Shown here one piece after another: positions 60 through 58,005 of a stretch of DNA of 64,000 nucleotides (positions are counted from its first letter, which is position 1; every line of letters starts with the position of its first letter). Source of the DNA: Escherichia phage UE-S5a; sequence record PP175015.1; one strand, 5' to 3'. The notes beneath the pieces were generated by a model. That model was not told where the DNA came from, made no database searches, and worked only from the letters and a program-made list of their open reading frames with translations. Both the position numbers and the translations under genes were made by a program.

Positions 60-2414
60 ATGAACGAAATGTTCTCACAAGGTGGTAAAGGCTCCACTGG
101 TATTCTTACCAACAAACAAGCCATTGCCCGTAAGTTTGGTGTTAAGCAGAATGAGGTTGTTTACTTTGCTGTAGGTGTAGACTTAGGGGAATACAAGGTC
201 ATTTATGATAAGACTACCCAGCGAGCTTACTCATTACCTGCAGACCTTGGTTCAGGGGTTACTGCTGTAAGCCTTAATACTGCCGGTGTGTTAGTTCACT
301 CTACTGGTAATGTTGACCTGGGTGCACTAGCTGTTTCACGAGGAGAGTTTATAACAGTCCCTGGGTCCTTCTCTTTGGGTTATGAGATTAAAGTAAAGAA
401 TGAATGTCTTGAATACCAGGGTGGGTTGTATCGATGGGATGGCGCACTGCCAAAGGTTGTAGATGCTGGGTCTGTTCCTGATATTGGTACAGGAAAGTGG
501 CTGAGCGTCGGTGATGCAGCCCTGCGCAGCCAGATTTCAGACCCGGATGGTGCGTCCAGTTACCCTGAATTGCAGATGGCAAGATGGCGTGATGAGGGTG
601 ATGTTCGAGGCTGGGGTGCTAAAGGGGATGGTGTAACAGATAGTACGGAGAATATAGCTGCTTCACTAAATTCTCAAAAAGCTGTCGTAGCATCAGACGG
701 TGTATTCTCTAGTTCTGGTATTAATAGTAATTACTGTAACTTAGACGGTAGAGGCAGTGGTGTACTAAGTCACCGTTCAAGTACAGGTAACTACTTAGTA
801 TTTAACAATCTACGCTCAGGTCGCTTAAGTAATATTACGGTAGAAAGTAATAAGGCGACCGATACCACTCAAGGGCAGCAGGTATCTCTTGCTGGTGGCA
901 GTGATGTTACTATAAGTGATGTTAATTTCTCAAACGTTAAGGGCGCTGGTTTCAGTTTAATCACATACCCTAATGATGCACCCTCTGATGGGCTTATGAT
1001 TAAAGGCATTCGAGGTAGCTACTCCGGCTATGCTACTAATAAGGCGGCTGGATGCATACATGCTGATTCCTCGGTTAACTCCCTCATAAATAACGTCATT
1101 GCTAAGAACTACCCTCAGTTCGGGGCTGTAGAACTGAAAGGTACAGCCAGTTATAACATAGTCAGCAATGTTATAGGGGCAGACTGCCAGCATGTAACTT
1201 ACAACGGTACAGAAGGGTCAATAGCTCCCTCTAACAACCTTATCAATGGGGTAGTGGCTAATAATCCTAAATATGCAGCGGTTGTTGCAGGCAAAGGTAG
1301 TACCAACTTAATCTCAGATGTGCTTGTAGATTTCTCAATCTCTGACGCTAGTCAGGCTCACGGTGTTACAGTAGAAGGCTCTGATAACGTAATAAGCAAT
1401 GTGCTTATGTCAGGATGTGATGGTACTAACTCTTTAGGGCAAGCTCAAACTGCTACAATTGCGCGCTTTATAGATACAGCTAATAACAACTATGCGTCTG
1501 TATTTCCTAGCTACAGTGCTACAGGTGTTATTACTTTCGAATCAGGTTCTACCCGTAACTTCGTAGAGGTAAAGCATCCGGGAAGGAGAAACGACCTTCT
1601 CAGTGCTACTGGTACTATTGAAGGTGCAGTTACTATTGACGGCACTAGTAATAGCAACGTAGTGCACGCACCTGCCTTAGGACAGTACATAGGTAGTATG
1701 TCAGGTCGGTTCGAATGGCGGATTAAGTCCATGTCACTTCCGTCAGGCGTTCTTACCTCGGCTGATAAATACAGAATGCTTGGGGATGGTGCTGTGTCAT
1801 TAGCTGTAGGCGGGGGTACTTCTTCTCAAGTTCGCCTATTTACTTCTGATGGTACTTCTCGGAAAGTATCACTCACCAACGGTAACGTGCGTCTTCCTAC
1901 CAGTAGCACAGGTTATTTGCAGTTAGGTTCTGATGCAATGACCCCAGATAGTACTAATACATACGCATTAGGTTCCGCAAGTAGAGCATGGTCTGGCGGT
2001 TTTACTCAATCAGCATTCACTGTTGTCTCAGATGCTAGGGATAAAACAGAGCCTCTTAATATCTCAGATGCTTTACTGGATGCTTGGTCTGAAGTTGACT
2101 TTGTGCAGTTTCAGTACTTGGACAGGATTGAGGAGAAGGGTGCAGACTCAGCCAGATGGCACTTTGGTATCATCGCTCAGCGAGCTAAGGAGGCTTTCGA
2201 ACGTCACGGCATAGATGCACATCGCTATGGCTTCCTGTGCTTCGACAGTTGGGATGATGTATATGAGGAAGATGCCAATGGCTCTCGTAAACTGATTACA
2301 CCAGCAGGTTCCCGCTACGGTATTCGTTACGAGGAAGTACTGATATTAGAAGCTGCGTTGATGCGGCGTACTATTAAGCGTATGCAGGAAGCATTAGCTG
2401 TTATGTCTAAGTGA
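60..2414 (+). CDS. Tail fiber/tailspike with C-terminal intramolecular chaperone (peptidase S74-like) domain; reading frame is open upstream to position 3, so the true start may lie outside the window
   Basis: 784-aa ORF; Gly/Ser/Thr/Asn-rich central region typical of beta-helical receptor-binding proteins; C-terminal VVSDARDKTEP...WHFGIIAQRAKEAFERHG matches the self-cleaving chaperone domain of endosialidase-type fibers; RBS AAAGAGG before ATG at 60. Confidence 0.7.
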   Translation: MNEMFSQGGKGSTGILTNKQAIARKFGVKQNEVVYFAVGVDLGEYKVIYDKTTQRAYSLPADLGSGVTAVSLNTAGVLVHSTGNVDLGALAVSRGEFITVPGSFSLGYEIKVKNECLEYQGGLYRWDGALPKVVDAGSVPDIGTGKWLSVGDAALRSQISDPDGASSYPELQMARWRDEGDVRGWGAKGDGVTDSTENIAASLNSQKAVVASDGVFSSSGINSNYCNLDGRGSGVLSHRSSTGNYLVFNNLRSGRLSNITVESNKATDTTQGQQVSLAGGSDVTISDVNFSNVKGAGFSLITYPNDAPSDGLMIKGIRGSYSGYATNKAAGCIHADSSVNSLINNVIAKNYPQFGAVELKGTASYNIVSNVIGADCQHVTYNGTEGSIAPSNNLINGVVANNPKYAAVVAGKGSTNLISDVLVDFSISDASQAHGVTVEGSDNVISNVLMSGCDGTNSLGQAQTATIARFIDTANNNYASVFPSYSATGVITFESGSTRNFVEVKHPGRRNDLLSATGTIEGAVTIDGTSNSNVVHAPALGQYIGSMSGRFEWRIKSMSLPSGVLTSADKYRMLGDGAVSLAVGGGTSSQVRLFTSDGTSRKVSLTNGNVRLPTSSTGYLQLGSDAMTPDSTNTYALGSASRAWSGGFTQSAFTVVSDARDKTEPLNISDALLDAWSEVDFVQFQYLDRIEEKGADSARWHFGIIAQRAKEAFERHGIDAHRYGFLCFDSWDDVYEEDANGSRKLITPAGSRYGIRYEEVLILEAALMRRTIKRMQEALAVMSK

Positions 2415-2492
2415 GTAATACTGGTACGGTTAGATCAGTAGAGTTGGTTAACAGTAGCCTACGTACTACCAGGCTATTACTTATCTAGGTAT

Positions 2493-2521
2493 AAAACCCC
2501 GCTCAGGCGGGGTTTGTTTTT
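2493..2521. terminator. Bidirectional rho-independent terminator between convergent genes
   Basis: ataaaa-CCCCGC-tcag-GCGGGG-tttgttttt: GC stem flanked by A-run and T-run. Confidence 0.6.
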
Positions 2522-2539
2522 ATCTATTAATAATATTTC

Positions 2540-3166
2540 TTATATAGAGTTTACTGTTTGCATTGCCCTAATTGATACTGCTGTTAGGGTAATTACTTGT
2601 CCTGAGATATTAAACATACCTAACTGAATACCGTCTACCATGAAAGGGTCAGTTGAACCAAGTGTGTAAGTAGCCAGTACGTTATCTCTGTTAGCAATGT
2701 CTGTACCCTGTACTTTAACACTAGCATCTGAACCTACTATCGTAATTCCATTGGTTCGTCTTGTTTGTGTTCTCCATTCCCTTGCTGTACCTGCACCACC
2801 TGCAATAATTCCTGATATACGAACACTGAACATTACCTGGGTATTCCTGGTTCTAATGGGGAACTTAAGATTTCCTTCTTCAATTGTTAGTGCTGCTGTA
2901 CCTCCAGGTGATTTAGTTATCCCTGGTAATGAAAAGTAATTGAACCAGGATTGGTCATTTACTGCCTGGCTCCCGGTCCATGTATACAAGTCCAGAAGAA
3001 ATGTGTCTTCTAACTCTGTTGGTGGGAAAGGTAGTAGTTCTGGGGGGATCTCTGAGATGTTATTAGCAGAAACTATTCGTTCCCCATAACTTCCCACGAC
3101 CAACAATCCCCCCTTCATTTTGCACACAACATCCCTACCACTTTGGAAAATATCTTTAATAGACAT
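2540..3166 (-). CDS. Hypothetical protein encoded antisense to the late module
   Basis: Track ORF 2540..3193; start moved to second ATG (MSIKDIF...) preceded by GAGG at 6 nt; no recognisable motif. Confidence 0.45.
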   Translation of the reverse strand: MSIKDIFQSGRDVVCKMKGGLLVVGSYGERIVSANNISEIPPELLPFPPTELEDTFLLDLYTWTGSQAVNDQSWFNYFSLPGITKSPGGTAALTIEEGNLKFPIRTRNTQVMFSVRISGIIAGGAGTAREWRTQTRRTNGITIVGSDASVKVQGTDIANRDNVLATYTLGSTDPFMVDGIQLGMFNISGQVITLTAVSIRAMQTVNSI

Positions 3167-3290
3167 AGTTACCTCGCAGTTGATACCAGACACTATGTCT
3201 GGATGTATCCCATCATACTAAGTATTATCTAAGAGTCATCTTATGATACGACCCTATTGGGGTTCTTAACTTTACAACTACGGTAATATT

Positions 3291-3620
3291 ATGAATGAAT
3301 CGGGCGAACTGCTTCTAGTCAGACTGGAGGAACGATTGAAGACTCTGTTTGAGAATCAGACGAGAGACAGACAGGACCGTGAGAAACTGGAGGAAACTCT
3401 GGGAGAATTACGGGATTCAATCAATGACATAGGCAATAGACTAAAAAATGTGGAGGATAGCTTAGCTAAGAATGAACCTACTATTGAAGAGTTCATCACC
3501 ATTAAGCATAAAGTTGTTGGTGCTGGAATTTTTGGTAAGTGGGTATGGGCTGGAGCAGGTGCAATTATTGGTGTATTGGCTGCTGCAAGACGGGAGATAT
3601 TCGCATGGTTCGCAGGCTAA
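3291..3620 (+). CDS. Coiled-coil protein with C-terminal transmembrane helix (holin/antiholin-associated candidate)
   Basis: 109 aa; charged coiled-coil N-terminus, C-terminal VVGAGIFGKWVWAGAGAIIGVLAAA; sits at head of lysis cassette. Confidence 0.45.
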   Translation: MNESGELLLVRLEERLKTLFENQTRDRQDREKLEETLGELRDSINDIGNRLKNVEDSLAKNEPTIEEFITIKHKVVGAGIFGKWVWAGAGAIIGVLAAARREIFAWFAG

Positions 3621-3865
3621 AAAGAAAAGTAGAGTTAGTACCTAACTGGAAAAGGTGTTGGAAGTGGGCATCCATTCAGATTAGTACACTTGGTTTAGTT
3701 CTATTTTCCGCTATAGATATTATCCAACCAATGGTGACAGGATTACCTCGTCACATCTTGGAAGATATTCCCCATGGTTCCAATATTGCAATCGCACTGT
3801 TTGCCTTAAACATCATAGGCAGATTAATACGATTCCGACCAAAGGAAGATTCACATGAAAGCTAA
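3605..3865 (+). CDS. Putative class II holin (two TMDs)
   Basis: Start moved to ATG 3605 (GGGAGA 8 nt upstream); 86 aa, basic N-terminus, two hydrophobic helices (ISTLGLVLFSAIDII, IAIALFALNIIGRLI), charged C-terminus; overlaps endolysin start. Confidence 0.5.
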   Translation: MVRRLKRKVELVPNWKRCWKWASIQISTLGLVLFSAIDIIQPMVTGLPRHILEDIPHGSNIAIALFALNIIGRLIRFRPKEDSHES

Positions 3866-4490
3866 ACAGAAACTTGCTGCAAAAGGTGGTGCAGTGGGAG
3901 GGGTTATCGCTGCTATTCTGGGGGCAGTGTTCTATATGGAAGGAGGTTATGTAAACAATCCTCGTGACCCAGGTGGGGAAACTAATCATGGTATTACCCA
4001 ATCAGTAGCTAAGACTCATAAAGAAGTTCTGGCTACTGAGTATGGTTGGGATGGTTCTATGAAGGGTTTATCTAAAGAGATGGCTGCTGAGATATACATT
4101 GATGACTATGTACTTAAACCTAACTTCGTAGCCTTCGCTGATATATCTCCTGCTGTAACGCATAAGCTAGTAGATGCTGGTGTTAATACTGGTGTAACCC
4201 GTCCTGCTAAGTGGTTGCAGATGTCTCTTAATGAAATGTCACGTAATGGCAAAGACTACCCTAAAATACAGGTTGATGGTAAAGTCGGTACAAGTACTGT
4301 TAATGCATATAAAGCATTACAGAAAAAACGGGGCAAAGTTGCAGCATGTCAGGTAATGATTAAGCTGCTTGATGCTAAACAACTGAACCACTATACCTCA
4401 TTAAACATGCCAGACTTTACGTATGGTTGGGTAGCTAACCGAATAGGCAATGTGCCACTGGAGGCATGTAATGAAGATGCTAATCTCTAA
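3855..4490 (+). CDS. Endolysin, N-acetylmuramidase (GH108 domain + peptidoglycan-binding domain), N4 gp61-like
   Basis: N-terminal EGGYVNNPRDPGGETNHGITQ is the GH108 signature; C-terminal region resembles PG_binding_3; RBS AAGGAAG. Confidence 0.8.
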   Translation: MKAKQKLAAKGGAVGGVIAAILGAVFYMEGGYVNNPRDPGGETNHGITQSVAKTHKEVLATEYGWDGSMKGLSKEMAAEIYIDDYVLKPNFVAFADISPAVTHKLVDAGVNTGVTRPAKWLQMSLNEMSRNGKDYPKIQVDGKVGTSTVNAYKALQKKRGKVAACQVMIKLLDAKQLNHYTSLNMPDFTYGWVANRIGNVPLEACNEDANL

Positions 4491-28713: not shown

Positions 28714-28787
28714 TGTCCACTACTGGATTTGAACCAGTGACTTTCCGATTATTAGTCGGTTGCTTTCCCCGTCTAAGCTAAGCGGAC
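28714..28787 (-). tRNA. tRNA; anticodon loop reads CUAAUAA, i.e. anticodon AAU (formally Ile, unusual A34)
   Basis: Hand fold: acceptor GTCCGCT/AGTGGAC (one G-U), D-stem GCTT/AAGC, anticodon stem CCGA/TCGG, T-arm ACTGG-TTCAAAT-CCAGT; no encoded CCA. Confidence 0.55.
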
Positions 28788-28793
28788 ATAATA

Positions 28794-28869
28794 TGGTTAC
28801 CCGGACAGGATTCGAACCTGCGTCCTAGTTGGTTTACTAGTGGGGCTTTACCACTAAGCCTACCGGGTA
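28794..28869 (-). tRNA. tRNA with encoded CCA; anticodon arm non-canonical by hand fold (identity unresolved)
   Basis: Perfect acceptor TACCCGG/CCGGGTA, discriminator A, CCA encoded; D-stem GGCT/AGCC; T-arm GCAGG-TTCGAAT-CCTGT; anticodon region folds as CTAGT/ACTAG with a 6-nt loop. Confidence 0.5.
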
Positions 28870-50114: not shown

Positions 50115-50146
50115 TAAATAAAAAAGCCCACGGGTTAGGTGGGCTT
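50115..50146 (-). terminator. Candidate rho-independent terminator (minus sense)
   Basis: AGCCCAC-gggttag-GTGGGCT preceded on + strand by A-run. Confidence 0.4.
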
Positions 50147-50536: not shown

Positions 50537-50746
50537 TTACTCAGCATCTTTGCTTGCAGGAGCAAGAGCTTTCTTCAGGTAATTGCGTACTGAACGATAG
50601 GTTTCTTTAGTATCCATAGCACTATCATTTACGAAAGTGATACGTGCACAATCAGACAGCGGAATCTGCTCCACTGCAATTACATTTGCAGCATTAATGG
50701 TTACACGTACATCTGAGGTTGCATGAGTTACTTGAAATACTGACAT
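50537..50746 (-). CDS. Hypothetical protein
   Basis: 69-aa ORF. Confidence 0.35.
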   Translation of the reverse strand: MSVFQVTHATSDVRVTINAANVIAVEQIPLSDCARITFVNDSAMDTKETYRSVRNYLKKALAPASKDAE

Positions 50747-50776
50747 GTTGTTTCCTTAATTAAGCCGGATAGCCTT

Positions 50777-51283
50777 TTATTTTGAAGGTCTAGCAGCTAC
50801 TGGTTTGTTTTCCTGATTCTGATACTTACCATTGTAATTAGCAGGTTCTTGAACCAGATGAAATAATACTTGAGCTATCCCAGCACCAGCCGGGATATGC
50901 AATTTCTTACGACCGTGATAGACCAGTTCGAGGGTAAGATACCCTTTCCATCCTGGTTCTATTACGGTATTGAACACTGATAATGCACGTCTTGCCCATG
51001 TAGACTTATCGTGAACGATTGCTACACAGGACGGGGACATGTTGAACTTCTCAATTGCTGAGGCCAAGGCGAACTTACCGAGATGGCGTGATACTTGATT
51101 TCCATCAACGACTTTCACCATTGGAATCAGCCCAAATAAGCGATAGAAGGTAATATCTTGTTTGATACGAATATCATAACCAGCTTCACCTAATCCATAG
51201 CTTACACCATGCTCTGATACCTTATGGTCTGGGACATCCAGCAACTGAGATGAACGGTATAGAGAATTACCATTAACAACCAT
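50777..51283 (-). CDS. dcd: dCTP deaminase
   Basis: KSTWARRALSVFNTVIEPGWKGYLTLEL matches the dCTP deaminase/dUTPase-fold signature. Confidence 0.7.
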   Translation of the reverse strand: MVVNGNSLYRSSQLLDVPDHKVSEHGVSYGLGEAGYDIRIKQDITFYRLFGLIPMVKVVDGNQVSRHLGKFALASAIEKFNMSPSCVAIVHDKSTWARRALSVFNTVIEPGWKGYLTLELVYHGRKKLHIPAGAGIAQVLFHLVQEPANYNGKYQNQENKPVAARPSK

Positions 51284-52458
51284 TATTTCATTCCTTTAGG
51301 GATATGAACTACCTCCCCAAAAGGTACGGTAGCATTGGGATTATTCAGAACACACCAGATGATAGGAATATCAAATGGTAATTCTTCCATTGGACGAACA
51401 TACATATCGGAGAATATGATTGCAGCGGTTGGTTTATTCTTAATAATCCACTCGCGTACTGGTTCCAGGTTTGTACCACCACGACCGGTAATCTTAATCT
51501 CTTCAAAAGTATCTTCTTCAGTGATGTCTATCTCTTCTTGGATAATATCGTCGAAGGTAATTAAGGACATCTTCTTAGGATTGAACTGGCTCTTAACGTA
51601 GGCAACCTCTGAGTTAAAACGCAGAGAGTCAGCACTACTAATAGAACCAGATACATCCTCAAAGTAGGCTAAGTGTCGTAAGCGTCCTTCATCATCTTCC
51701 ATGGAAGGTAGATAGATGTCAGTAAAACGACGGTTAGGTCTGGCCCACGTATAATGAGTATCGTCAATGTCGGTAAAGAAGTTCATGAGGACTTCCTGCC
51801 ATGGAACCACTGGTTTAAGGAATTGGGTAATAACCTCTTCCATACGACCAGCACCCTTACCGGGCATCTGTCCACCAGCCATTTTCTGGCTCTGCATTGC
51901 TCGTACTACGTTGTTGACGACAGCACCCTGGGACTGCCCCGAAGTGGGGGATTTCATGTCGCCAGCAAGACCTGCTCCAGCACCCCCTGACGGCTTCTGC
52001 CTTTTCTGAGGGTTCTTCATCAGGTCATCGTAGATGTCTTCTTCGACCCATCCTTTATATTGAGGGTCTTTGCAAATACCTTTATCAATGCCAGTGAACT
52101 TATAACCATCTTCTTCTAACTGAAGGTTAATGAAGTGGTCACACGCCTGGTTCCAGATTTCTGGGTCACGGCTTCCACGACGGATGCCATGCAGATATGC
52201 CACATGCCAAAGTTCATGCATTAACACTGTTTCTCTGGCATCTGGACACATCCAGATAAAGAAATCTGGATTGAAGTGAAGTTCTATCCCATCAGTACAT
52301 GCAGTGGGACAATTCTCACGTTTCCATGAGAACTTAAGACTACATAGTAATGAACCAAAGAACGCAGCACTGCGTCCGAGAAATGCGTTGGCCTGTATTC
52401 TATCGTATTCCCTCATTAACTGTTCATCAGTGAGGTTATGTGGTGGTATGTTATTCAT
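51283..52458 (-). CDS. VWA-domain protein with N-terminal HExxH metallopeptidase-like domain (DUF2201-type)
   Basis: HELWHVAYLHG (HExxH) in N-terminal half; C-terminal half has VWA-like layout; partner of the AAA ATPase below. Confidence 0.55.
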   Translation of the reverse strand: MNNIPPHNLTDEQLMREYDRIQANAFLGRSAAFFGSLLCSLKFSWKRENCPTACTDGIELHFNPDFFIWMCPDARETVLMHELWHVAYLHGIRRGSRDPEIWNQACDHFINLQLEEDGYKFTGIDKGICKDPQYKGWVEEDIYDDLMKNPQKRQKPSGGAGAGLAGDMKSPTSGQSQGAVVNNVVRAMQSQKMAGGQMPGKGAGRMEEVITQFLKPVVPWQEVLMNFFTDIDDTHYTWARPNRRFTDIYLPSMEDDEGRLRHLAYFEDVSGSISSADSLRFNSEVAYVKSQFNPKKMSLITFDDIIQEEIDITEEDTFEEIKITGRGGTNLEPVREWIIKNKPTAAIIFSDMYVRPMEELPFDIPIIWCVLNNPNATVPFGEVVHIPKGMK

Positions 52459-52934
52459 TAAGATGCTCCATGATTTATATGGTAACCCAATAATTTTTCT
52501 GCTTCCTTTCTGGCTGTAATGGCCTCTTGTTTACTGTTAAACTTTCCTAAGTAAATTTGTTTACCATTATCATTTATATGGGCAGCCCAGATTTTATCTC
52601 GGGTGTGCCAGTAAACTCCTGTCACACCTGATGTATTTGTAATTCTCTTGGTTTGATTTTTGCAATTAATCGAGTTTGTTACTAAACGGAAATTGCTTGG
52701 GTAATTATTTAATCTATTATGGTCAATATGGTCTACCTGCATACCGTCAGGAATTGGTCCAATCTCCATTTCATAAATTATGCGGTGAACTAAATGCATT
52801 TTCTTGTTACATTTAACACGCAAATACCCACTGTTATCCAAACAACCGGCAATGGCACCTGCTTTTACGCAGCCCCTGCTTACTTTCCAGTAGAGGGAAC
52901 CATTGCTATAAACAAATAGTTCATGCCAATTCAT
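52458..52934 (-). CDS. HNH-AP2 homing endonuclease
   Basis: HNH core QVDHIDHNRLNN...LVTNSIN; AP2-type domain NTSGVTGVYWHTRDKIWAAHINDNGKQIYLGKFNSKQEAITARKEAEKLLGY. Confidence 0.8.
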   Translation of the reverse strand: MNWHELFVYSNGSLYWKVSRGCVKAGAIAGCLDNSGYLRVKCNKKMHLVHRIIYEMEIGPIPDGMQVDHIDHNRLNNYPSNFRLVTNSINCKNQTKRITNTSGVTGVYWHTRDKIWAAHINDNGKQIYLGKFNSKQEAITARKEAEKLLGYHINHGAS

Positions 52935-52938
52935 TATT

Positions 52939-53991
52939 TTATCCGTGAATGTAACGAGAGATATTAGCAGCAGCCTTACGCCATTCAGGTGTAGCCTGAA
53001 GTTCTGGCAATGCTCTGCCTACTGTACGGAAGTACAGAATCTTATGGGTGAACGTTTTAAAGCGTTCAATGTACTGAAGAACATCAGAGAAGTTTTCTTC
53101 AGTAGTTTTGTTAGCCAGGTGGTTAACAGTAGCCCAACACAGGTTGTTATCTTCCGGTAGTGCACAGCCCAGAGGGTCTTTGACTACTTTCTCAATCGTA
53201 ATCATACGATTGTATACCTGAGTGAATTGAACAAACTCTGTAGCCTTACCAGCAGTAACATGTCCTGCGTAGTAGATAGAATCTTCATCTGGCAGAGCAC
53301 CTTCAGGACGGTTCTTGAGGTCTTTGTTAACAAAGTCCCAGGTGCGTGGGCAACAGAACGTTTTGTTCTTATGGGCTGGGTCGAAGTCATGCAGATAACC
53401 TGGGTTAGCATGTAAGAATGCAACCAGACGTTCATCCCATTCTTGTGGAATCATTACATCTTCAACAAAGATGTCGAAGTTAAGTTCCATTTCGAAGTGA
53501 ACCACGCGAGACTGCATTGCAGTGCCCAGTGGGTTAACAATGGCACGGTCAGTAGCTTTGTTACCAGCACATATAATCATCACATTAGGATGGAGTTTTT
53601 TCTGACCAGTCATACGGTCCAGAATCAGTTTGTATGCAGCAGCTACTACTTCTTTTCTGGCTGAGTTGAACTCATCAAGGAACAGGAGCCAACCATTATA
53701 TCCTTCCGGTATCTCATCCCCCTCAATAGGGAATAAGTCAGCGAATGGGATAAACTCTGCACGGTCACCATTACGGAATGGTAGACCAGACAAATCCTCT
53801 GGGGCAGAAGTAGACAGACGATGGTCTATCAGTTTCATACCAAATTCTTCTGCAACAGAGCGAATAATTGCAGATTTACCCATTCCCGGTGATGAAGTCA
53901 GGAACGGTACGTTACCTGCTTGCAGGGCACGGATAATAAAGTTACGGGCCTGACGTGTATTACATATGGTCAGTGAGTCAATGCTCGCCAT
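52939..53991 (-). CDS. MoxR-like AAA+ ATPase
   Basis: Walker A SSPGMGKSAI; Walker B LLFLDEFNSA; about 350 aa. Confidence 0.65.
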   Translation of the reverse strand: MASIDSLTICNTRQARNFIIRALQAGNVPFLTSSPGMGKSAIIRSVAEEFGMKLIDHRLSTSAPEDLSGLPFRNGDRAEFIPFADLFPIEGDEIPEGYNGWLLFLDEFNSARKEVVAAAYKLILDRMTGQKKLHPNVMIICAGNKATDRAIVNPLGTAMQSRVVHFEMELNFDIFVEDVMIPQEWDERLVAFLHANPGYLHDFDPAHKNKTFCCPRTWDFVNKDLKNRPEGALPDEDSIYYAGHVTAGKATEFVQFTQVYNRMITIEKVVKDPLGCALPEDNNLCWATVNHLANKTTEENFSDVLQYIERFKTFTHKILYFRTVGRALPELQATPEWRKAAANISRYIHG

Positions 53992-54025
53992 TTACTTACT
54001 CTCCTAAAGTTAATGGAATTACTAA

Positions 54026-54352
54026 TTAAGATTTAATACATGGGTAGGCTGTATCAATTGCCATCAGAACCATGTCTGATGGTACTTTTACTGCATTAAC
54101 CTTTCTGTCATACAGAATAATAGTGGCTACTTTGTCAAAGACATTTCCTAACTTCAAACTATCTGGTACGCAGTTCTTACCTGCTTCTACACCCATAGTA
54201 ACCATGCCCATAAAGTAACCCTGGTTCACAAAGTTTGCATTATTGGCTTTGTAGTCAGCAGCAGCGTCTAACAGAGTTTCACGGCTGGATGCTTGAGCAT
54301 TGAATGACAGAACTGATAAAGCTACTACAGCAACAGCAATTAAAGTTTTCAT
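54026..54352 (-). CDS. Secreted/periplasmic hypothetical protein
   Basis: N-terminal signal peptide MKTLIAVAVVALSVLSFNAQA. Confidence 0.45.
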   Translation of the reverse strand: MKTLIAVAVVALSVLSFNAQASSRETLLDAAADYKANNANFVNQGYFMGMVTMGVEAGKNCVPDSLKLGNVFDKVATIILYDRKVNAVKVPSDMVLMAIDTAYPCIKS

Positions 54353-54538
54353 TTAGTTACCTTTTAACTCGTTGAGTTGAAGTACTCCAGTAGGGGTTAA
54401 TGACCACCCAAGACCAGCATTGAACTGCACTAAGCCCAGTTTCTTAAGAGACTGTGCGGTTTTATTATTGCGGTTGCTGGTGGCAGAACCACCTTGAACC
54501 ATACGAAGGAAGATTGCTTGGGACTGGGTTAATTTCAC
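54353..54538 (-). CDS. Hypothetical small protein
   Basis: 61-aa ORF, coupled. Confidence 0.35.
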   Translation of the reverse strand: MKLTQSQAIFLRMVQGGSATSNRNNKTAQSLKKLGLVQFNAGLGWSLTPTGVLQLNELKGN

Positions 54539-54980: not shown

Positions 54981-55085
54981 TTCCTGGCTCCAGAATGTTT
55001 AAGTCAAAAAAAGACCTCCCTTCATCTGGGAGGTCAAGCTTGGGAGTTTTATATCAGGGTTTACAACCCCAAATAAAGGCTACCT

Positions 55086-57498: not shown

Positions 57499-58005
57499 TT
57501 ATTGACCGTGACGGTTAGTATAGCCAGCACCATTCTGGTTCAAGGCTTCTAACATGTCGGCTCGTGCATCACATGCTTGTTGGAATGCGAACTCGTAGCC
57601 GTATTTCTTAACTGAGAATACTTTACACCTCTGTTTCTTTGTGATGTTGTCCGTACATGTAGCACGCCAGAATAACCCCTTTGGTGAATCCCATAGAGAT
57701 ACACCAGTTACCCCAGATTTATTGTCTGAACGTTTAGTAGAGTTACGCAGGTTGACTACAATGGGAACACATCGCAAGTTACACCAGCGGCAGTCCGTTC
57801 TGATACCGTTGATGTGGTCAATTGTATAACCAGCAGGGATAGATCTATGCTTCATTTCCCACAACCAACGGTGAAGGTATAAGATTTTATTTCCACGAGA
57901 GATGCGAATGTACCCAGTGGCACTATTCGCTGCCTCCGGTGGATGGGCTACAGCAAGTTCATCAACTGACTTGTTCCAGTAGCCCATTGGCATACGCTCT
58001 TTCAT
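57499..58005 (-). CDS. HNH-AP2 homing endonuclease inserted between the RNAP II subunit genes
   Basis: HNH core YTIDHINGIRTDCRWCNLR; AP2 domain NKSGVTGVSLWDSPKGLFWRATC...KYGYEFAFQQACDARADMLEAL; paralog of 52458-52934. Confidence 0.8.
   Translation of the reverse strand: MKERMPMGYWNKSVDELAVAHPPEAANSATGYIRISRGNKILYLHRWLWEMKHRSIPAGYTIDHINGIRTDCRWCNLRCVPIVVNLRNSTKRSDNKSGVTGVSLWDSPKGLFWRATCTDNITKKQRCKVFSVKKYGYEFAFQQACDARADMLEALNQNGAGYTNRHGQ

What the first reader, a model, noticed from the sequence alone, without database searches (positions are those of the whole stretch)
51283..53991. MoxR-like AAA ATPase plus VWA/HExxH metallopeptidase-like pair, split by a homing endonuclease
A Walker A/B AAA+ ATPase (52939-53991) is followed by a VWA-type protein with an N-terminal HExxH motif (51283-52458), the classic MoxR-VWA two-gene architecture. 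Its role in a lytic podophage is unknown (chaperone-like remodelling, host takeover or anti-defence). An HNH-AP2 gene sits exactly between the two partners.
Basis: partly seen in the sequence, partly recalled or inferred. Interest (0 to 1): 0.6.

Follow-up and report, generated by a model that had tools for sequence, protein, structure and literature searches.

The report
N4 gp24/gp25 ATPase–VWA-peptidase pair
This is the well-known, universally conserved N4-phage gene pair gp24/gp25, a MoxR-type AAA+ ATPase and its partner carrying a zinc-peptidase domain and a VWA domain, separated here by a mobile HNH endonuclease gene; the reading is correct, but it is already annotated and its biological target is still unknown.

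Summary
The window is a G7C-like N4-like podophage (Gamaleyavirus), identical here to Escherichia phage UE-M3.

- **ORF 52939-53991 (-)** is the orthologue of N4 gp24. It is an AAA+ ATPase whose model best matches the MoxR proteins NorQ and CbbQ, then dynein and Rea1.
- **ORF 51283-52458 (-)** is the orthologue of N4 gp25. It has Pfam DUF2201_N (putative metallopeptidase, 3e-56) plus DUF2201 (VWA-like, 2e-34). The HExxH and the full MIDAS motif (DxSxS-T-D) are invariant in 52 relatives.
- **ORF 52458-52934 (-)** is an HNH_3(+AP2) homing endonuclease, the counterpart of G7C gp24.1. It replaces a 7-nt spacer and is absent from most sister phages.

The pair is not new. gp24 and gp25 are two of the 14 core genes of N4-like phages, and the MoxR plus peptidase-vWA architecture was described for jumbo phages in 2021.

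What this work adds:
- The same pair, often with a third ~300-aa gene, is a very large bacterial family.
- In Paraburkholderia it sits between a PRTRC cassette and conjugation genes.
- A chromosomal variant lacking the catalytic Glu lies among metal-transport genes.
- Inteins and an intron-like HNH target the catalytic motifs.

The most likely mechanism is an ATP-driven remodel-and-cleave machine. The substrate is unknown. Interest is low to moderate.

The parts
52939..53991 (-). N4 gp24 orthologue: MoxR-class AAA+ ATPase, 350 aa
   Evidence: ORF. Pfam AAA 2e-6 and phrog_1297 1e-133. AF2 model pLDDT 88, with NorQ, CbbQ2, dynein and Rea1 as top PDB matches. Annotated gp24 homologue in PhAPEC7 and G7C.
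53872..53895 (-). Walker A (SSPGMGKS, residues 33-40)
   Evidence: G38, K39 and S40 are invariant in 51 relatives.
53671..53688 (-). Walker B (LLFLDE, residues 102-107)
   Evidence: D106 and E107 are invariant. In phage U1G an HNH-bearing insert splits the gene between profile positions 105 and 106.
52458..52934 (-). Free-standing HNH_3 (+AP2-like) homing endonuclease, 158 aa, counterpart of G7C gp24.1
   Evidence: Pfam HNH_3 2.6e-18; AP2 31.2 bits, below the cut-off. phrog_99 2e-63. It replaces the 7-nt spacer seen in PhAPEC7. By megablast it occurs only in UE-M3, UE-S5b, UE-M6 and G7C.
51283..52458 (-). N4 gp25 orthologue: putative zinc metallopeptidase plus VWA-like domain, 391 aa
51700..52410 (-). 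DUF2201_N putative metallopeptidase domain (residues 17-253)
   Evidence: Pfam. The model shows three beta-strands followed by a helix carrying HExxH and a second helix carrying C106-D107.
52204..52218 (-). HExxH motif (HELWH, residues 81-85)
   Evidence: H81, E82 and H85 are invariant in 52 Schitoviridae-type relatives. The motif is kept in 66 of the 74 bacterial homologues that cover it; 8 replace the Glu.
52138..52143 (-). C106-D107 of the invariant WNxACD motif. D107 is the candidate third metal ligand. Relatives carry an intein at this point.
   Evidence: Invariant. Inteins in P0364 and P0371 are inserted exactly between A105 and C106.
51301..51672 (-). VWA-like domain (residues 263-386)
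51643..51657 (-). MIDAS DxSxS (DVSGS, residues 268-272). T329 and D351 complete the site.
   Evidence: D268, S270, S272, T329 and D351 are invariant.
50777..51283 (-). dCTP deaminase (N4 gp26 orthologue), start overlapping the gp25 stop, same transcription unit
   Evidence: Pfam DCD 4e-16. Annotation. The only terminator-like hairpins with a clean run of six or more T on the minus strand here are at 55013-55035 and 50124-50146; two weaker ones lie inside gp24 and gp25.

Best explanation
The two genes are the orthologues of phage N4 gp24 and gp25. They encode a two-component MoxR-type AAA+/VWA machine whose VWA partner also carries an active-looking zinc metallopeptidase.

The inferred mechanism follows NorQ-NorD, CbbQ-CbbO and RavA-ViaA:
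1. gp24 forms a hexameric ring.
2. The ring docks the C-terminal VWA domain of gp25.
3. The MIDAS metal site of that domain captures an acidic side chain of a target protein.
4. ATP hydrolysis twists or pulls on the gp25-target complex.
5. The N-terminal HExxH domain of gp25 cuts the exposed target. This step is specific to this family.

The pair is made in the middle phase from one transcription unit together with dCTP deaminase.

The target is not known. The same module is a core gene pair of all N4-like phages, and it also occurs in unrelated myophages and in conjugative elements that make no virions. I therefore judge an intracellular role, processing or remodelling a protein needed to establish or replicate the incoming element, somewhat more likely (about 0.4) than the alternatives:
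- virion morphogenesis, about 0.25;
- dedicated anti-defence or host takeover, about 0.2;
- metal insertion without proteolysis, about 0.1.

The HNH gene between the partners is an unrelated selfish insertion. It leaves both reading frames intact and is translationally coupled to gp25.
For: Shown directly:
- **Identity.** The window is 100% identical to UE-M3, and the ORFs are annotated as N4 gp24/gp25 homologues in PhAPEC7 and G7C.
- **gp24 sequence.** Walker A, Walker B, sensor-1 N144, R162 and R216 are invariant in 51 relatives.
- **gp24 model.** The top structural matches are NorQ, the NorQ-NorD complex and CbbQ2. The model has an insertion between beta2 and beta3 and a hairpin before sensor 1.
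- **gp25.** Pfam gives a metallopeptidase domain plus a VWA-like domain. HExxH, C106-D107 and the whole MIDAS motif are invariant. The C-terminal domain has a VWA fold.
- **Linkage.** In 69 of 74 bacterial loci with enough upstream sequence, a gp24 homologue lies upstream on the same strand. The pair is also adjacent in the jumbo phage GAP32.
- **Selection on the catalytic Glu.** Eight homologues, all without the X gene and from Desulfobacterota or Thiotrichaceae, have lost the Glu; the one locus whose flanks I scanned lies among metal-transport genes. Phage versions and most other bacterial versions keep it.
- **Selfish elements at catalytic motifs.** Inteins sit exactly at WNxA|CD, and an HNH insert sits at the Walker B motif.
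- **Non-virion context.** In Paraburkholderia the module lies between a PRTRC cassette and T4SS conjugation genes.

From the literature:
- gp24 and gp25 are 2 of the 14 core genes of N4-like phages and are middle transcripts in N4 (PMC4193335).
- The MoxR-VWA docking and twisting mechanism comes from the NorQD structures (PMC13036017).
Against: - No experiment on gp24 or gp25 was found in the searchable literature.
- The window ATPase is below Pfam's AAA_5 cut-off (17.5 against 22 bits).
- No complex was modelled, so the gp24-gp25 interaction is inferred only from gene linkage and analogy.
- It was not tested whether the VWA domain has a NorD-like 'finger'.
- The role assignment is weak. A virion decoration gene lies just upstream in the same region, and 'second structural modules' expressed in mid-phase sit near gp24/25 in some N4-like phages (PMC4193335). 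In GAP32 the pair follows virion structural genes.
- Only 13 of 75 bacterial loci showed T4SS or PRTRC markers within 6 kb.
Confidence: 0.8

Rival explanations
1. Virion-assembly chaperone and protease. The pair folds, assembles and proteolytically processes structural proteins. This was proposed for the same architecture in group 2.2 jumbo phages, and the MoxR/VWA pair of the archaeal virus ATV is reported to be required for tail assembly.
For: - Published proposal (PMC7824862).
- In GAP32 the pair follows three virion structural genes.
- In this window the Hoc-like decoration gene lies 1 kb upstream on the same strand.
- Structural genes expressed in mid-phase lie near gp24/25 in roseophages and LIT1 (PMC4193335).
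- Core-gene status fits a basic life-cycle function.
Against: - The same module, with all catalytic residues, is common in bacterial chromosomes and in conjugative elements that build no virion.
- It is shared by phages of unrelated morphology.
- It is not in the late structural gene block, and it is co-transcribed with dCTP deaminase.
- gp24 and gp25 are not among the N4-like virion proteins listed by mass spectrometry in PMC4193335.
Confidence: 0.25
2. Anti-defence or host-takeover protease. The machine recognises and destroys a host protein, such as a defence component or a nucleoid or replication factor, to allow the incoming DNA to establish.
For: - The module is shared by phages and conjugative elements, and in the latter it sits next to a PRTRC cassette.
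- It is expressed before late genes (PMC4193335).
- Its neighbours in the unit include a superinfection-immunity gene and a Tai4/Rap1a-like gene.
Against: - Anti-defence genes are usually accessory and variable, whereas this pair is one of 14 core genes across hosts from Roseobacter to Escherichia.
- Nothing significant was found in PADLOC; the only match is a weak 13.8-bit one for the ATPase.
- Relatives also occur in ordinary chromosomal, metal-related contexts.
Confidence: 0.2
3. Metal-cofactor insertion without proteolysis. As in NorQD, CoxDE or the chelatases, the pair loads a metal into a phage or host enzyme, and the HExxH domain serves as a metal-binding site rather than a protease.
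For: - The closest solved relatives are the metal-insertion machines NorQ and NorD.
- A bacterial subgroup keeps both His residues but has lost the catalytic Glu, and the one such locus examined sits among FeoB, DUF4198 and periplasmic-binding-protein genes.
Against: - All 52 aligned phage-type relatives, and 66 of the 74 bacterial homologues that cover the motif, keep the catalytic Glu of HExxH. That argues for catalysis in the phage version.
- No metalloenzyme that obviously needs assisted loading is encoded next to the pair. ThyX uses flavin, and I know of no metal centre in dCTP deaminase that would need a dedicated insertion factor (my own knowledge).
Confidence: 0.1

Closest known systems
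Bacteriophage N4 gp24 (AAA ATPase) and gp25 (vWFA protein): core genes of N4-like phages (Schitoviridae)
   Same: Orthologues with the same order, strand and neighbours (RNAPII upstream, dCTP deaminase and ThyX downstream). RefSeq notes in PhAPEC7 and G7C say 'similar to gp24/gp25 from N4'. They are two of 14 core genes and are middle transcripts (PMC4193335).
   Different: The only difference is the HNH gene between them, which G7C shares (gp24.1) and N4 and most Gamaleyavirus genomes lack.
MoxR AAA+ / metallopeptidase-vWA pair of group 2.2 jumbo phages (Iyer et al. 2021, PMC7824862)
   Same: Same two-gene architecture and the same families. GAP32_210/211 match the gp24 and gp25 profiles at 2e-36 and 4e-40.
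   Different: The jumbo-phage proteins are longer (447 and 451 aa) and about 24% identical. The published functional proposal, virion assembly, has not been tested in either group.
NorQ-NorD (also CbbQ-CbbO, RavA-ViaA): bacterial MoxR/VWA remodelling pairs
   Same: The ATPase is closest in structure to NorQ and CbbQ2. The partner has a VWA domain with a DxSxS-T-D MIDAS motif. The genes are adjacent.
   Different: - gp25 has a much smaller VWA domain (about 125 aa).
- Its N-terminal domain is an HExxH peptidase-like domain, not the NorD or CbbO N-terminal domains.
- Whether a pore-inserting 'finger' exists was not tested.
- gp24 has a longer C-terminal helical region (350 aa against about 255-270 aa).
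Bacterial AAA - X - DUF2201 module on conjugative elements (Paraburkholderia) and in Acidobacteria
   Same: The ATPase and the DUF2201 protein are homologous at full length (E 1e-45 to 1e-70), and all catalytic residues are kept.
   Different: The bacterial modules carry a third conserved ~300-aa gene (weak DUF3150 match) whose position varies. It has no detectable homologue in the window.
ATV p618 (MoxR) / p892 (VWA) of Acidianus two-tailed virus
   Same: A viral MoxR plus VWA pair (cited in PMC7824862 and PMC7159879).
   Different: It has no peptidase domain on the VWA protein (PMC7824862). It is an archaeal virus, and homology to gp24/25 beyond the superfamily level was not tested here.
G7C gp24.1 and EndZ-like HNH homing endonucleases
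   Same: 92.5% nucleotide identity to G7C gp24.1 at the same site, with the HNH_3 domain.
   Different: None of note.

Membership tests
MoxR-class AAA+ ATPase (clade 7; Pfam AAA_5 / AAA_3) | Walker A, Walker B, sensor 1 and arginine finger present | tested here: met
   G38-K39-S40, D106-E107, N144 and R162 are invariant in 51 relatives. They are kept in the bacterial homologues, apart from conservative E107 to D and S40 to T changes.
MoxR-class AAA+ ATPase (clade 7; Pfam AAA_5 / AAA_3) | Helix-2 insert and pre-sensor-1 beta-hairpin | tested here: inconclusive
   The AF2 model has a ~40-residue insertion between beta2 and beta3 (residues 59-100, pLDDT only 55-75) holding the invariant P64, D66, G69 and P71. 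It also has short strands at 127-134 before the sensor-1 strand. This is consistent, but it was judged from secondary structure only.
MoxR-class AAA+ ATPase (clade 7; Pfam AAA_5 / AAA_3) | Closest structures are MoxR members | tested here: met
   Foldseek top hits are NorQ (9qhd, 9qh4, 9qh8) and CbbQ2 (6l1q), then dynein and Rea1, with E about 1e-7 to 1e-6.
MoxR-class AAA+ ATPase (clade 7; Pfam AAA_5 / AAA_3) | Reaches the Pfam AAA_5 or AAA_3 gathering score | tested here: not met
   The window protein scores 17.5 bits on AAA_5 against a cut-off of 22, and only the generic AAA model passes. Bacterial orthologues do pass: L080 scores 28.6 on AAA_5 and 27.7 on AAA_3, and L084 scores 27.5 on AAA_5.
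MoxR-class AAA+ ATPase (clade 7; Pfam AAA_5 / AAA_3) | Gene linked to a VWA-domain partner | tested here: met
   The genes are adjacent in Schitoviridae and GAP32, and 69 of 74 bacterial loci have the ATPase upstream on the same strand.
MoxR-class AAA+ ATPase (clade 7; Pfam AAA_5 / AAA_3) | Hexamer with ATPase activity that binds its VWA partner | not testable with these tools
   This needs biochemistry or a complex prediction.
VWA / MIDAS domain | VWA (Rossmann-like) fold | tested here: met
VWA / MIDAS domain | Complete MIDAS motif DxSxS...T...D | tested here: met
   D268, S270, S272, T329 and D351 are invariant in 52 relatives. They are kept in 71 of 75 bacterial homologues; 3 of the other 4 are cut short or gapped at the C-terminal end.
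Zincin-type metallopeptidase (Pfam PF13203, DUF2201_N) | Family profile match | tested here: met
   3.3e-56, 191 bits against a cut-off of 23.2, covering profile positions 3-270 of 271.
Zincin-type metallopeptidase (Pfam PF13203, DUF2201_N) | HExxH on a helix, plus a third metal ligand | tested here: met
   HELWH 81-85 lies in model helix 72-87 and is invariant. The invariant D107 lies on the next long helix (99-116) and is the candidate third ligand, which is an inference.
Zincin-type metallopeptidase (Pfam PF13203, DUF2201_N) | Fold similarity to solved zincins | tested here: inconclusive
Zincin-type metallopeptidase (Pfam PF13203, DUF2201_N) | Peptidase activity | not testable with these tools
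   No experimental report was found.
Free-standing HNH homing endonuclease | HNH catalytic domain | tested here: met
   HNH_3 2.6e-18. phrog_99 2.4e-63. PADLOC 'HEase' 8e-11.
Free-standing HNH homing endonuclease | Sporadic presence at a fixed site between conserved genes, with flanking ORFs left intact | tested here: met
   By megablast it is present in 4 genomes (5 records, G7C being deposited twice) and absent from most of the ~60 related records. It replaces the 7-nt spacer TCACAAC seen in PhAPEC7.
Free-standing HNH homing endonuclease | AP2 DNA-binding domain | tested here: inconclusive
   AP2 scores 31.2 bits, just below the 33.3-bit gathering score, with E 2.8e-7.

The most novel reading that the evidence does not exclude
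The AAA-(X)-DUF2201 module may be a shared 'establishment' device of mobile DNA. On this reading, N4-like phages, Rak2-like and rV5-like myophages and PRTRC-type conjugative elements all use an ATP-driven, MIDAS-targeted zinc protease to remove or process one conserved cellular protein that otherwise blocks replication or expression of incoming DNA. That would give two of the 14 unexplained core genes of Schitoviridae a function, and it would define a new class of protease common to phages and plasmids.
Probability: 0.15. Interest if true: 0.7.

Novelty: already known. Interest (0 to 1): 0.3.

Why it matters
gp24 and gp25 are two of only 14 genes shared by all N4-like phages, and after two decades they still have no assigned function. 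The predicted biochemistry is clear: a MoxR ATPase, a MIDAS adaptor and an HExxH peptidase. The catalytic residues to mutate are defined. The family has about 15,000 clusters at 50% identity with E up to 1e-10. A simple mutant study in N4 or G7C would therefore annotate a large family found in phages, conjugative elements and bacterial chromosomes. As a genome-scan finding, however, it is a correct re-discovery of an annotated and published architecture, not something new.

Tried and rejected
- NCBIfam gave no hit for any of the three proteins.
- PADLOC gave nothing meaningful for gp24 or gp25, so the pair is not a known defence-system component.
- PDB sequence searches gave only weak midasin hits for gp24 and nothing for gp25, either with the single sequence or with the profile.
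- I looked in the window for a homologue of the bacterial third gene X. The best hit has E 0.024 and was rejected.
- I tested whether the HNH-bearing insert that splits the U1G ATPase is a known group I intron. There was no Rfam hit.
- Literature searches for DUF2201, COG3864, Schitoviridae+VWA and N4 gp24/gp25 essentiality found no functional study. One search failed on a term that was too short.
- I first suspected that the bacterial gene downstream of gp25 might be a dCTP deaminase, as in the phage. In Acidobacteria it is instead an RNase H-like protein (my reading of the sequence, no profile search) followed by a ~200-aa protein with no NCBIfam match.
- The PHROG and RefSeq label 'HNH endonuclease' for the gp25 family was rejected as a mislabel, because Pfam sees only DUF2201_N and DUF2201.
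Full report
**1. What is in the sequence**

On the minus strand there are three tightly packed ORFs:
- 53991-52939, 350 aa;
- 52934-52458, 158 aa;
- 52458-51283, 391 aa.

These are followed by a dCTP deaminase gene (51283-50777) whose start overlaps the previous stop.

The stretch 50700-54400 is 100% identical to Escherichia phage UE-M3 and 92% identical to phage G7C. Both belong to Schitoviridae, Enquatrovirinae, Gamaleyavirus. RefSeq notes in PhAPEC7 and G7C identify the outer two ORFs as homologues of N4 gp24 and gp25, and the middle one as G7C gp24.1.

On the minus strand, the only terminator-like hairpins here with a clean run of six or more T are at 55013-55035 and 50124-50146. Two weaker ones lie inside gp24 and gp25. 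The outer pair brackets a unit holding three small ORFs, a Tai4/Rap1a-like ORF, gp24, the HNH gene, gp25, dCTP deaminase, a small ORF and a gene annotated as superinfection immunity in relatives.

**2. The ATPase**

- Pfam gives only the generic AAA model above threshold (2e-6). AAA_5 scores 17.5 bits against a cut-off of 22.
- The best PDB sequence match is an AAA module of midasin (1e-4).
- In an alignment of 51 relatives at 50-91% identity, the following are invariant: Walker A (G38 K39 S40), Walker B (D106 E107), N144, R162, R216 and a P64-x-D66-x-x-G69-x-P71 motif.
- The AlphaFold2 model (pLDDT 88, pTM 0.83) has NorQ, NorQ-NorD complexes and CbbQ2 as its best Foldseek hits. CbbQ2 is described in its PDB entry as 'a MoxR AAA+-ATPase'. 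Dynein and Rea1 follow.
- Bacterial orthologues of gp24 pass the AAA_5 and AAA_3 cut-offs.

The caveat is that the helix-2 insert is modelled with low confidence.

**3. The partner**

- Pfam gives DUF2201_N 'putative metallopeptidase' (3.3e-56, residues 17-253) and DUF2201 'VWA-like' (1.7e-34, residues 263-386).
- In 52 relatives down to 47% identity, H81, E82, H85, A105, D107 and the whole MIDAS set (D268, S270, S272, T329, D351) are invariant. C106 is kept in at least 90% of them.
- The model (pLDDT 80, with a low-confidence linker at 214-256) shows three strands, then a helix carrying HExxH, then a helix carrying C106-D107. This is the order expected for a minimal zincin.
- No solved zincin appeared among the top hits of either search, because the VWA domain dominates the lists. 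The peptidase fold is therefore not independently confirmed.

**4. The HNH gene**

HNH_3 scores 2.6e-18 and AP2 scores just under threshold.

In PhAPEC7 the junction reads ...GGATAA-TCACAAC-ATGAAC. In the window it reads ...GGATAA-AATA-[ATG...HNH...TCT-TA]ATGAAT. The insertion replaces the 7-nt spacer, leaves both neighbours intact and overlaps the gp25 start.

Most related records align in two pieces covering 80-86% of the query, consistent with a missing ~480-nt segment. PhAPEC7 was checked directly and lacks the gene. By megablast the gene itself occurs only in UE-M3, UE-S5b, UE-M6 and G7C. This is the pattern of a free-standing homing endonuclease.

**5. How widespread and how linked**

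- A profile of gp25 finds 21,774 cluster representatives at 50% identity with E up to 1e-3, and 14,906 with E up to 1e-10.
- In phage records, tblastn finds 741 genomes. These include Schitoviridae of many hosts, Rak2/GAP32-like jumbo phages, rV5-like phages and others.
- In GAP32 the ATPase and the DUF2201 gene are adjacent. In rV5-like slur16 a gp24-like ATPase lies about 3.6 kb away.
Of the best 80 loci, 74 have enough upstream sequence. In 69 of those a gp24 homologue lies upstream on the same strand: 21 directly adjacent and 48 with a ~0.3-1.5 kb gap.
- In many of those loci the gap holds a conserved ~280-330-aa protein with a weak, sub-threshold DUF3150 match. Its profile finds it in 56 of the loci. 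In other loci the same protein lies before the ATPase or after the DUF2201 gene.
- The window has no homologue of this third gene.

**6. Context in bacteria**

- In Paraburkholderia the three-gene module lies between a PRTRC-type cassette (Prok-E2_D, Prok-JAB, ThiF) and conjugation genes for VirB11-like, TrbC, VirB4/TrbE, TrbL, TraI_2 and TraG proteins.
- Acidobacterial loci carry PRTRC protein E upstream. Twenty of them have an RNase H-like gene downstream (my reading of the sequence, no profile search), and an overlapping set of twenty has a conserved ~200-aa gene.
- Only 13 of 75 loci showed T4SS or PRTRC markers within the 6-kb flanks. The link to mobile elements is therefore clear for some lineages, not all.
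- Eight loci from Desulfobacterota or Thiotrichaceae, all lacking X, have replaced the catalytic Glu (H[LIVT]xxH) while keeping both His residues. The one I scanned, L080, lies among FeoB, DUF4198, periplasmic-binding-protein and flavodoxin genes.
- All 52 aligned phage-type relatives, and 66 of the 74 bacterial homologues that cover the motif, keep HExxH. Because the Glu can be lost elsewhere in the family, its retention in phages points to selection for catalysis.

**7. Selfish elements mark the catalytic motifs**

- Metagenomic gp25 homologues P0364 and P0371 carry inteins (Pfam Hint / Intein_splicing) inserted exactly between A105 and C106. Each has a Cys at intein position 1, a terminal HN, and C106 as the +1 residue.
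- In phage U1G an HNH ORF noted as 'phage intron' splits the ATPase between profile positions 105 and 106, inside the Walker B motif. Rfam finds no known intron there.
- By established knowledge, inteins and intron-borne endonucleases favour the most conserved functional sites. That is indirect support for the importance of WNxACD and Walker B.

**8. Mechanism**

*Shown:* the domain identities, the invariant catalytic residues, and the gene linkage across phages and bacteria.

*From the literature:* middle-phase expression and core-gene status in N4-like phages (PMC4193335), and the way MoxR rings dock and twist VWA partners (PMC13036017).

*Inferred:* gp24 hexamers dock the gp25 VWA domain, the MIDAS site captures an acidic residue of a target, ATP hydrolysis remodels the target, and the HExxH domain cleaves it.

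The target is unknown. Core status argues for a basic life-cycle role and against a narrow anti-defence role. Presence in virion-less conjugative elements and in morphologically unrelated phages argues against a specific virion substrate. Structural genes nearby, in this phage and in GAP32, keep morphogenesis alive as an option. My ranking is:
- intracellular establishment or replication-related processing, about 0.4;
- morphogenesis, about 0.25;
- anti-defence or host takeover, about 0.2;
- metal insertion without proteolysis, about 0.1.

**9. Comparison with what is known, and novelty**

- The genes are annotated in UE-M3 as 'ATP-binding protein', 'HNH homing endonuclease' and 'VWA-like domain-containing protein'.
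- gp24 was called a putative AAA ATPase and gp25 a vWFA protein in 2009 (PMC2784036).
- The architecture 'MoxR AAA+ ATPase plus vWA fused to an N-terminal metallopeptidase' was described for jumbo phages in 2021, with a virion-assembly proposal (PMC7824862).

The finding is therefore a correct re-discovery.

**10. Verdict**

- Observation: confirmed.
- Interpretation: supported.
- Novelty: already known.
- Interest: 0.3. The open question, what two core genes of N4-like phages do, is real. This finding does not by itself make it newly testable.

Noticed in passing
L088 (Escherichia phage U1G, NC_070872) 2239-4173; corresponds to window gp24, 52939-53991: In U1G the ATPase gene is split into 107-aa and 225-aa ORFs by a ~940-nt insert carrying an HNH ORF annotated 'phage intron'. 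The break falls exactly between profile positions 105 and 106, inside Walker B (LFL|DE). Truncated ATPase clusters P0141 and P0144 (27 and 66 member sequences) suggest this form may be common. No Rfam intron family matched.
   Followed up: partly
P0364 and P0371 (metagenomic gp25 homologues); site corresponds to window 52138-52146: Two gp25 homologues carry inteins (Pfam Vint / Intein_splicing) inserted exactly between A105 and C106 of the invariant WNxACD motif, next to the predicted third metal ligand D107.
   Followed up: yes
PHROG phrog_1314; RefSeq records such as NC_019401 GAP32_211, NC_013692 and NC_070852: The gp25 family (DUF2201_N + DUF2201) is widely labelled 'HNH endonuclease' in PHROGs and in many RefSeq phage records, although it has no HNH domain. 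The label has probably spread from members with inserted or adjacent homing endonucleases.
   Followed up: partly
L018 4002-7113; L084 7946-11194; L020, L022 and L041 for permuted orders: Bacterial relatives form a three-gene module: AAA ATPase, a conserved ~300-aa protein (weak DUF3150 match), and the DUF2201 protein. The position of the middle gene varies between lineages. In Paraburkholderia the module lies between a PRTRC cassette and T4SS conjugation genes. The third protein has no homologue in the window.
   Followed up: partly
L034, L045, L060, L063, L075, L080, L082, L083: Eight loci from Desulfobacterota or Thiotrichaceae, all lacking the third gene, have lost the catalytic Glu of HExxH (H[LIVT]VMHPxC[GN]HH). 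In L080, the one locus I scanned, the pair sits among FeoB, DUF4198, periplasmic-binding-protein and flavodoxin genes. This suggests a metal-handling, non-proteolytic offshoot of the family.
   Followed up: partly
window 54026-54352 (-): A 108-aa ORF with an N-terminal signal-peptide-like segment (my reading) and a weak Rap1a match (E 0.002, below threshold). It is annotated 'Tai4' in UE-M3 and 'Rap1a' in Shigella phage Moonfish. It is a possible type VI secretion immunity-like protein encoded just upstream of gp24.
   Followed up: no
window about 57500-58005 (-), from the UE-M3 annotation UEM3_067: A second HNH homing endonuclease gene sits between the genes for the two subunits of the middle RNA polymerase (RNAP1/RNAP2). 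This is another conserved gene pair in this genome separated by a selfish element.
   Followed up: no
L088 1057-2231 (U1G gp29/gp30): In U1G the gp25 orthologue is annotated as two overlapping ORFs that split at profile position 156, in the low-complexity linker. This is either a frameshift or a sequencing error. Both halves are labelled 'HNH endonuclease'.
   Followed up: no
window 28714-28869 (-): Two tRNA genes (Rfam 63 and 40.7 bits) lie near where cumulative GC skew turns over (about 28 kb), which may mark the boundary between oppositely transcribed gene blocks.
   Followed up: no
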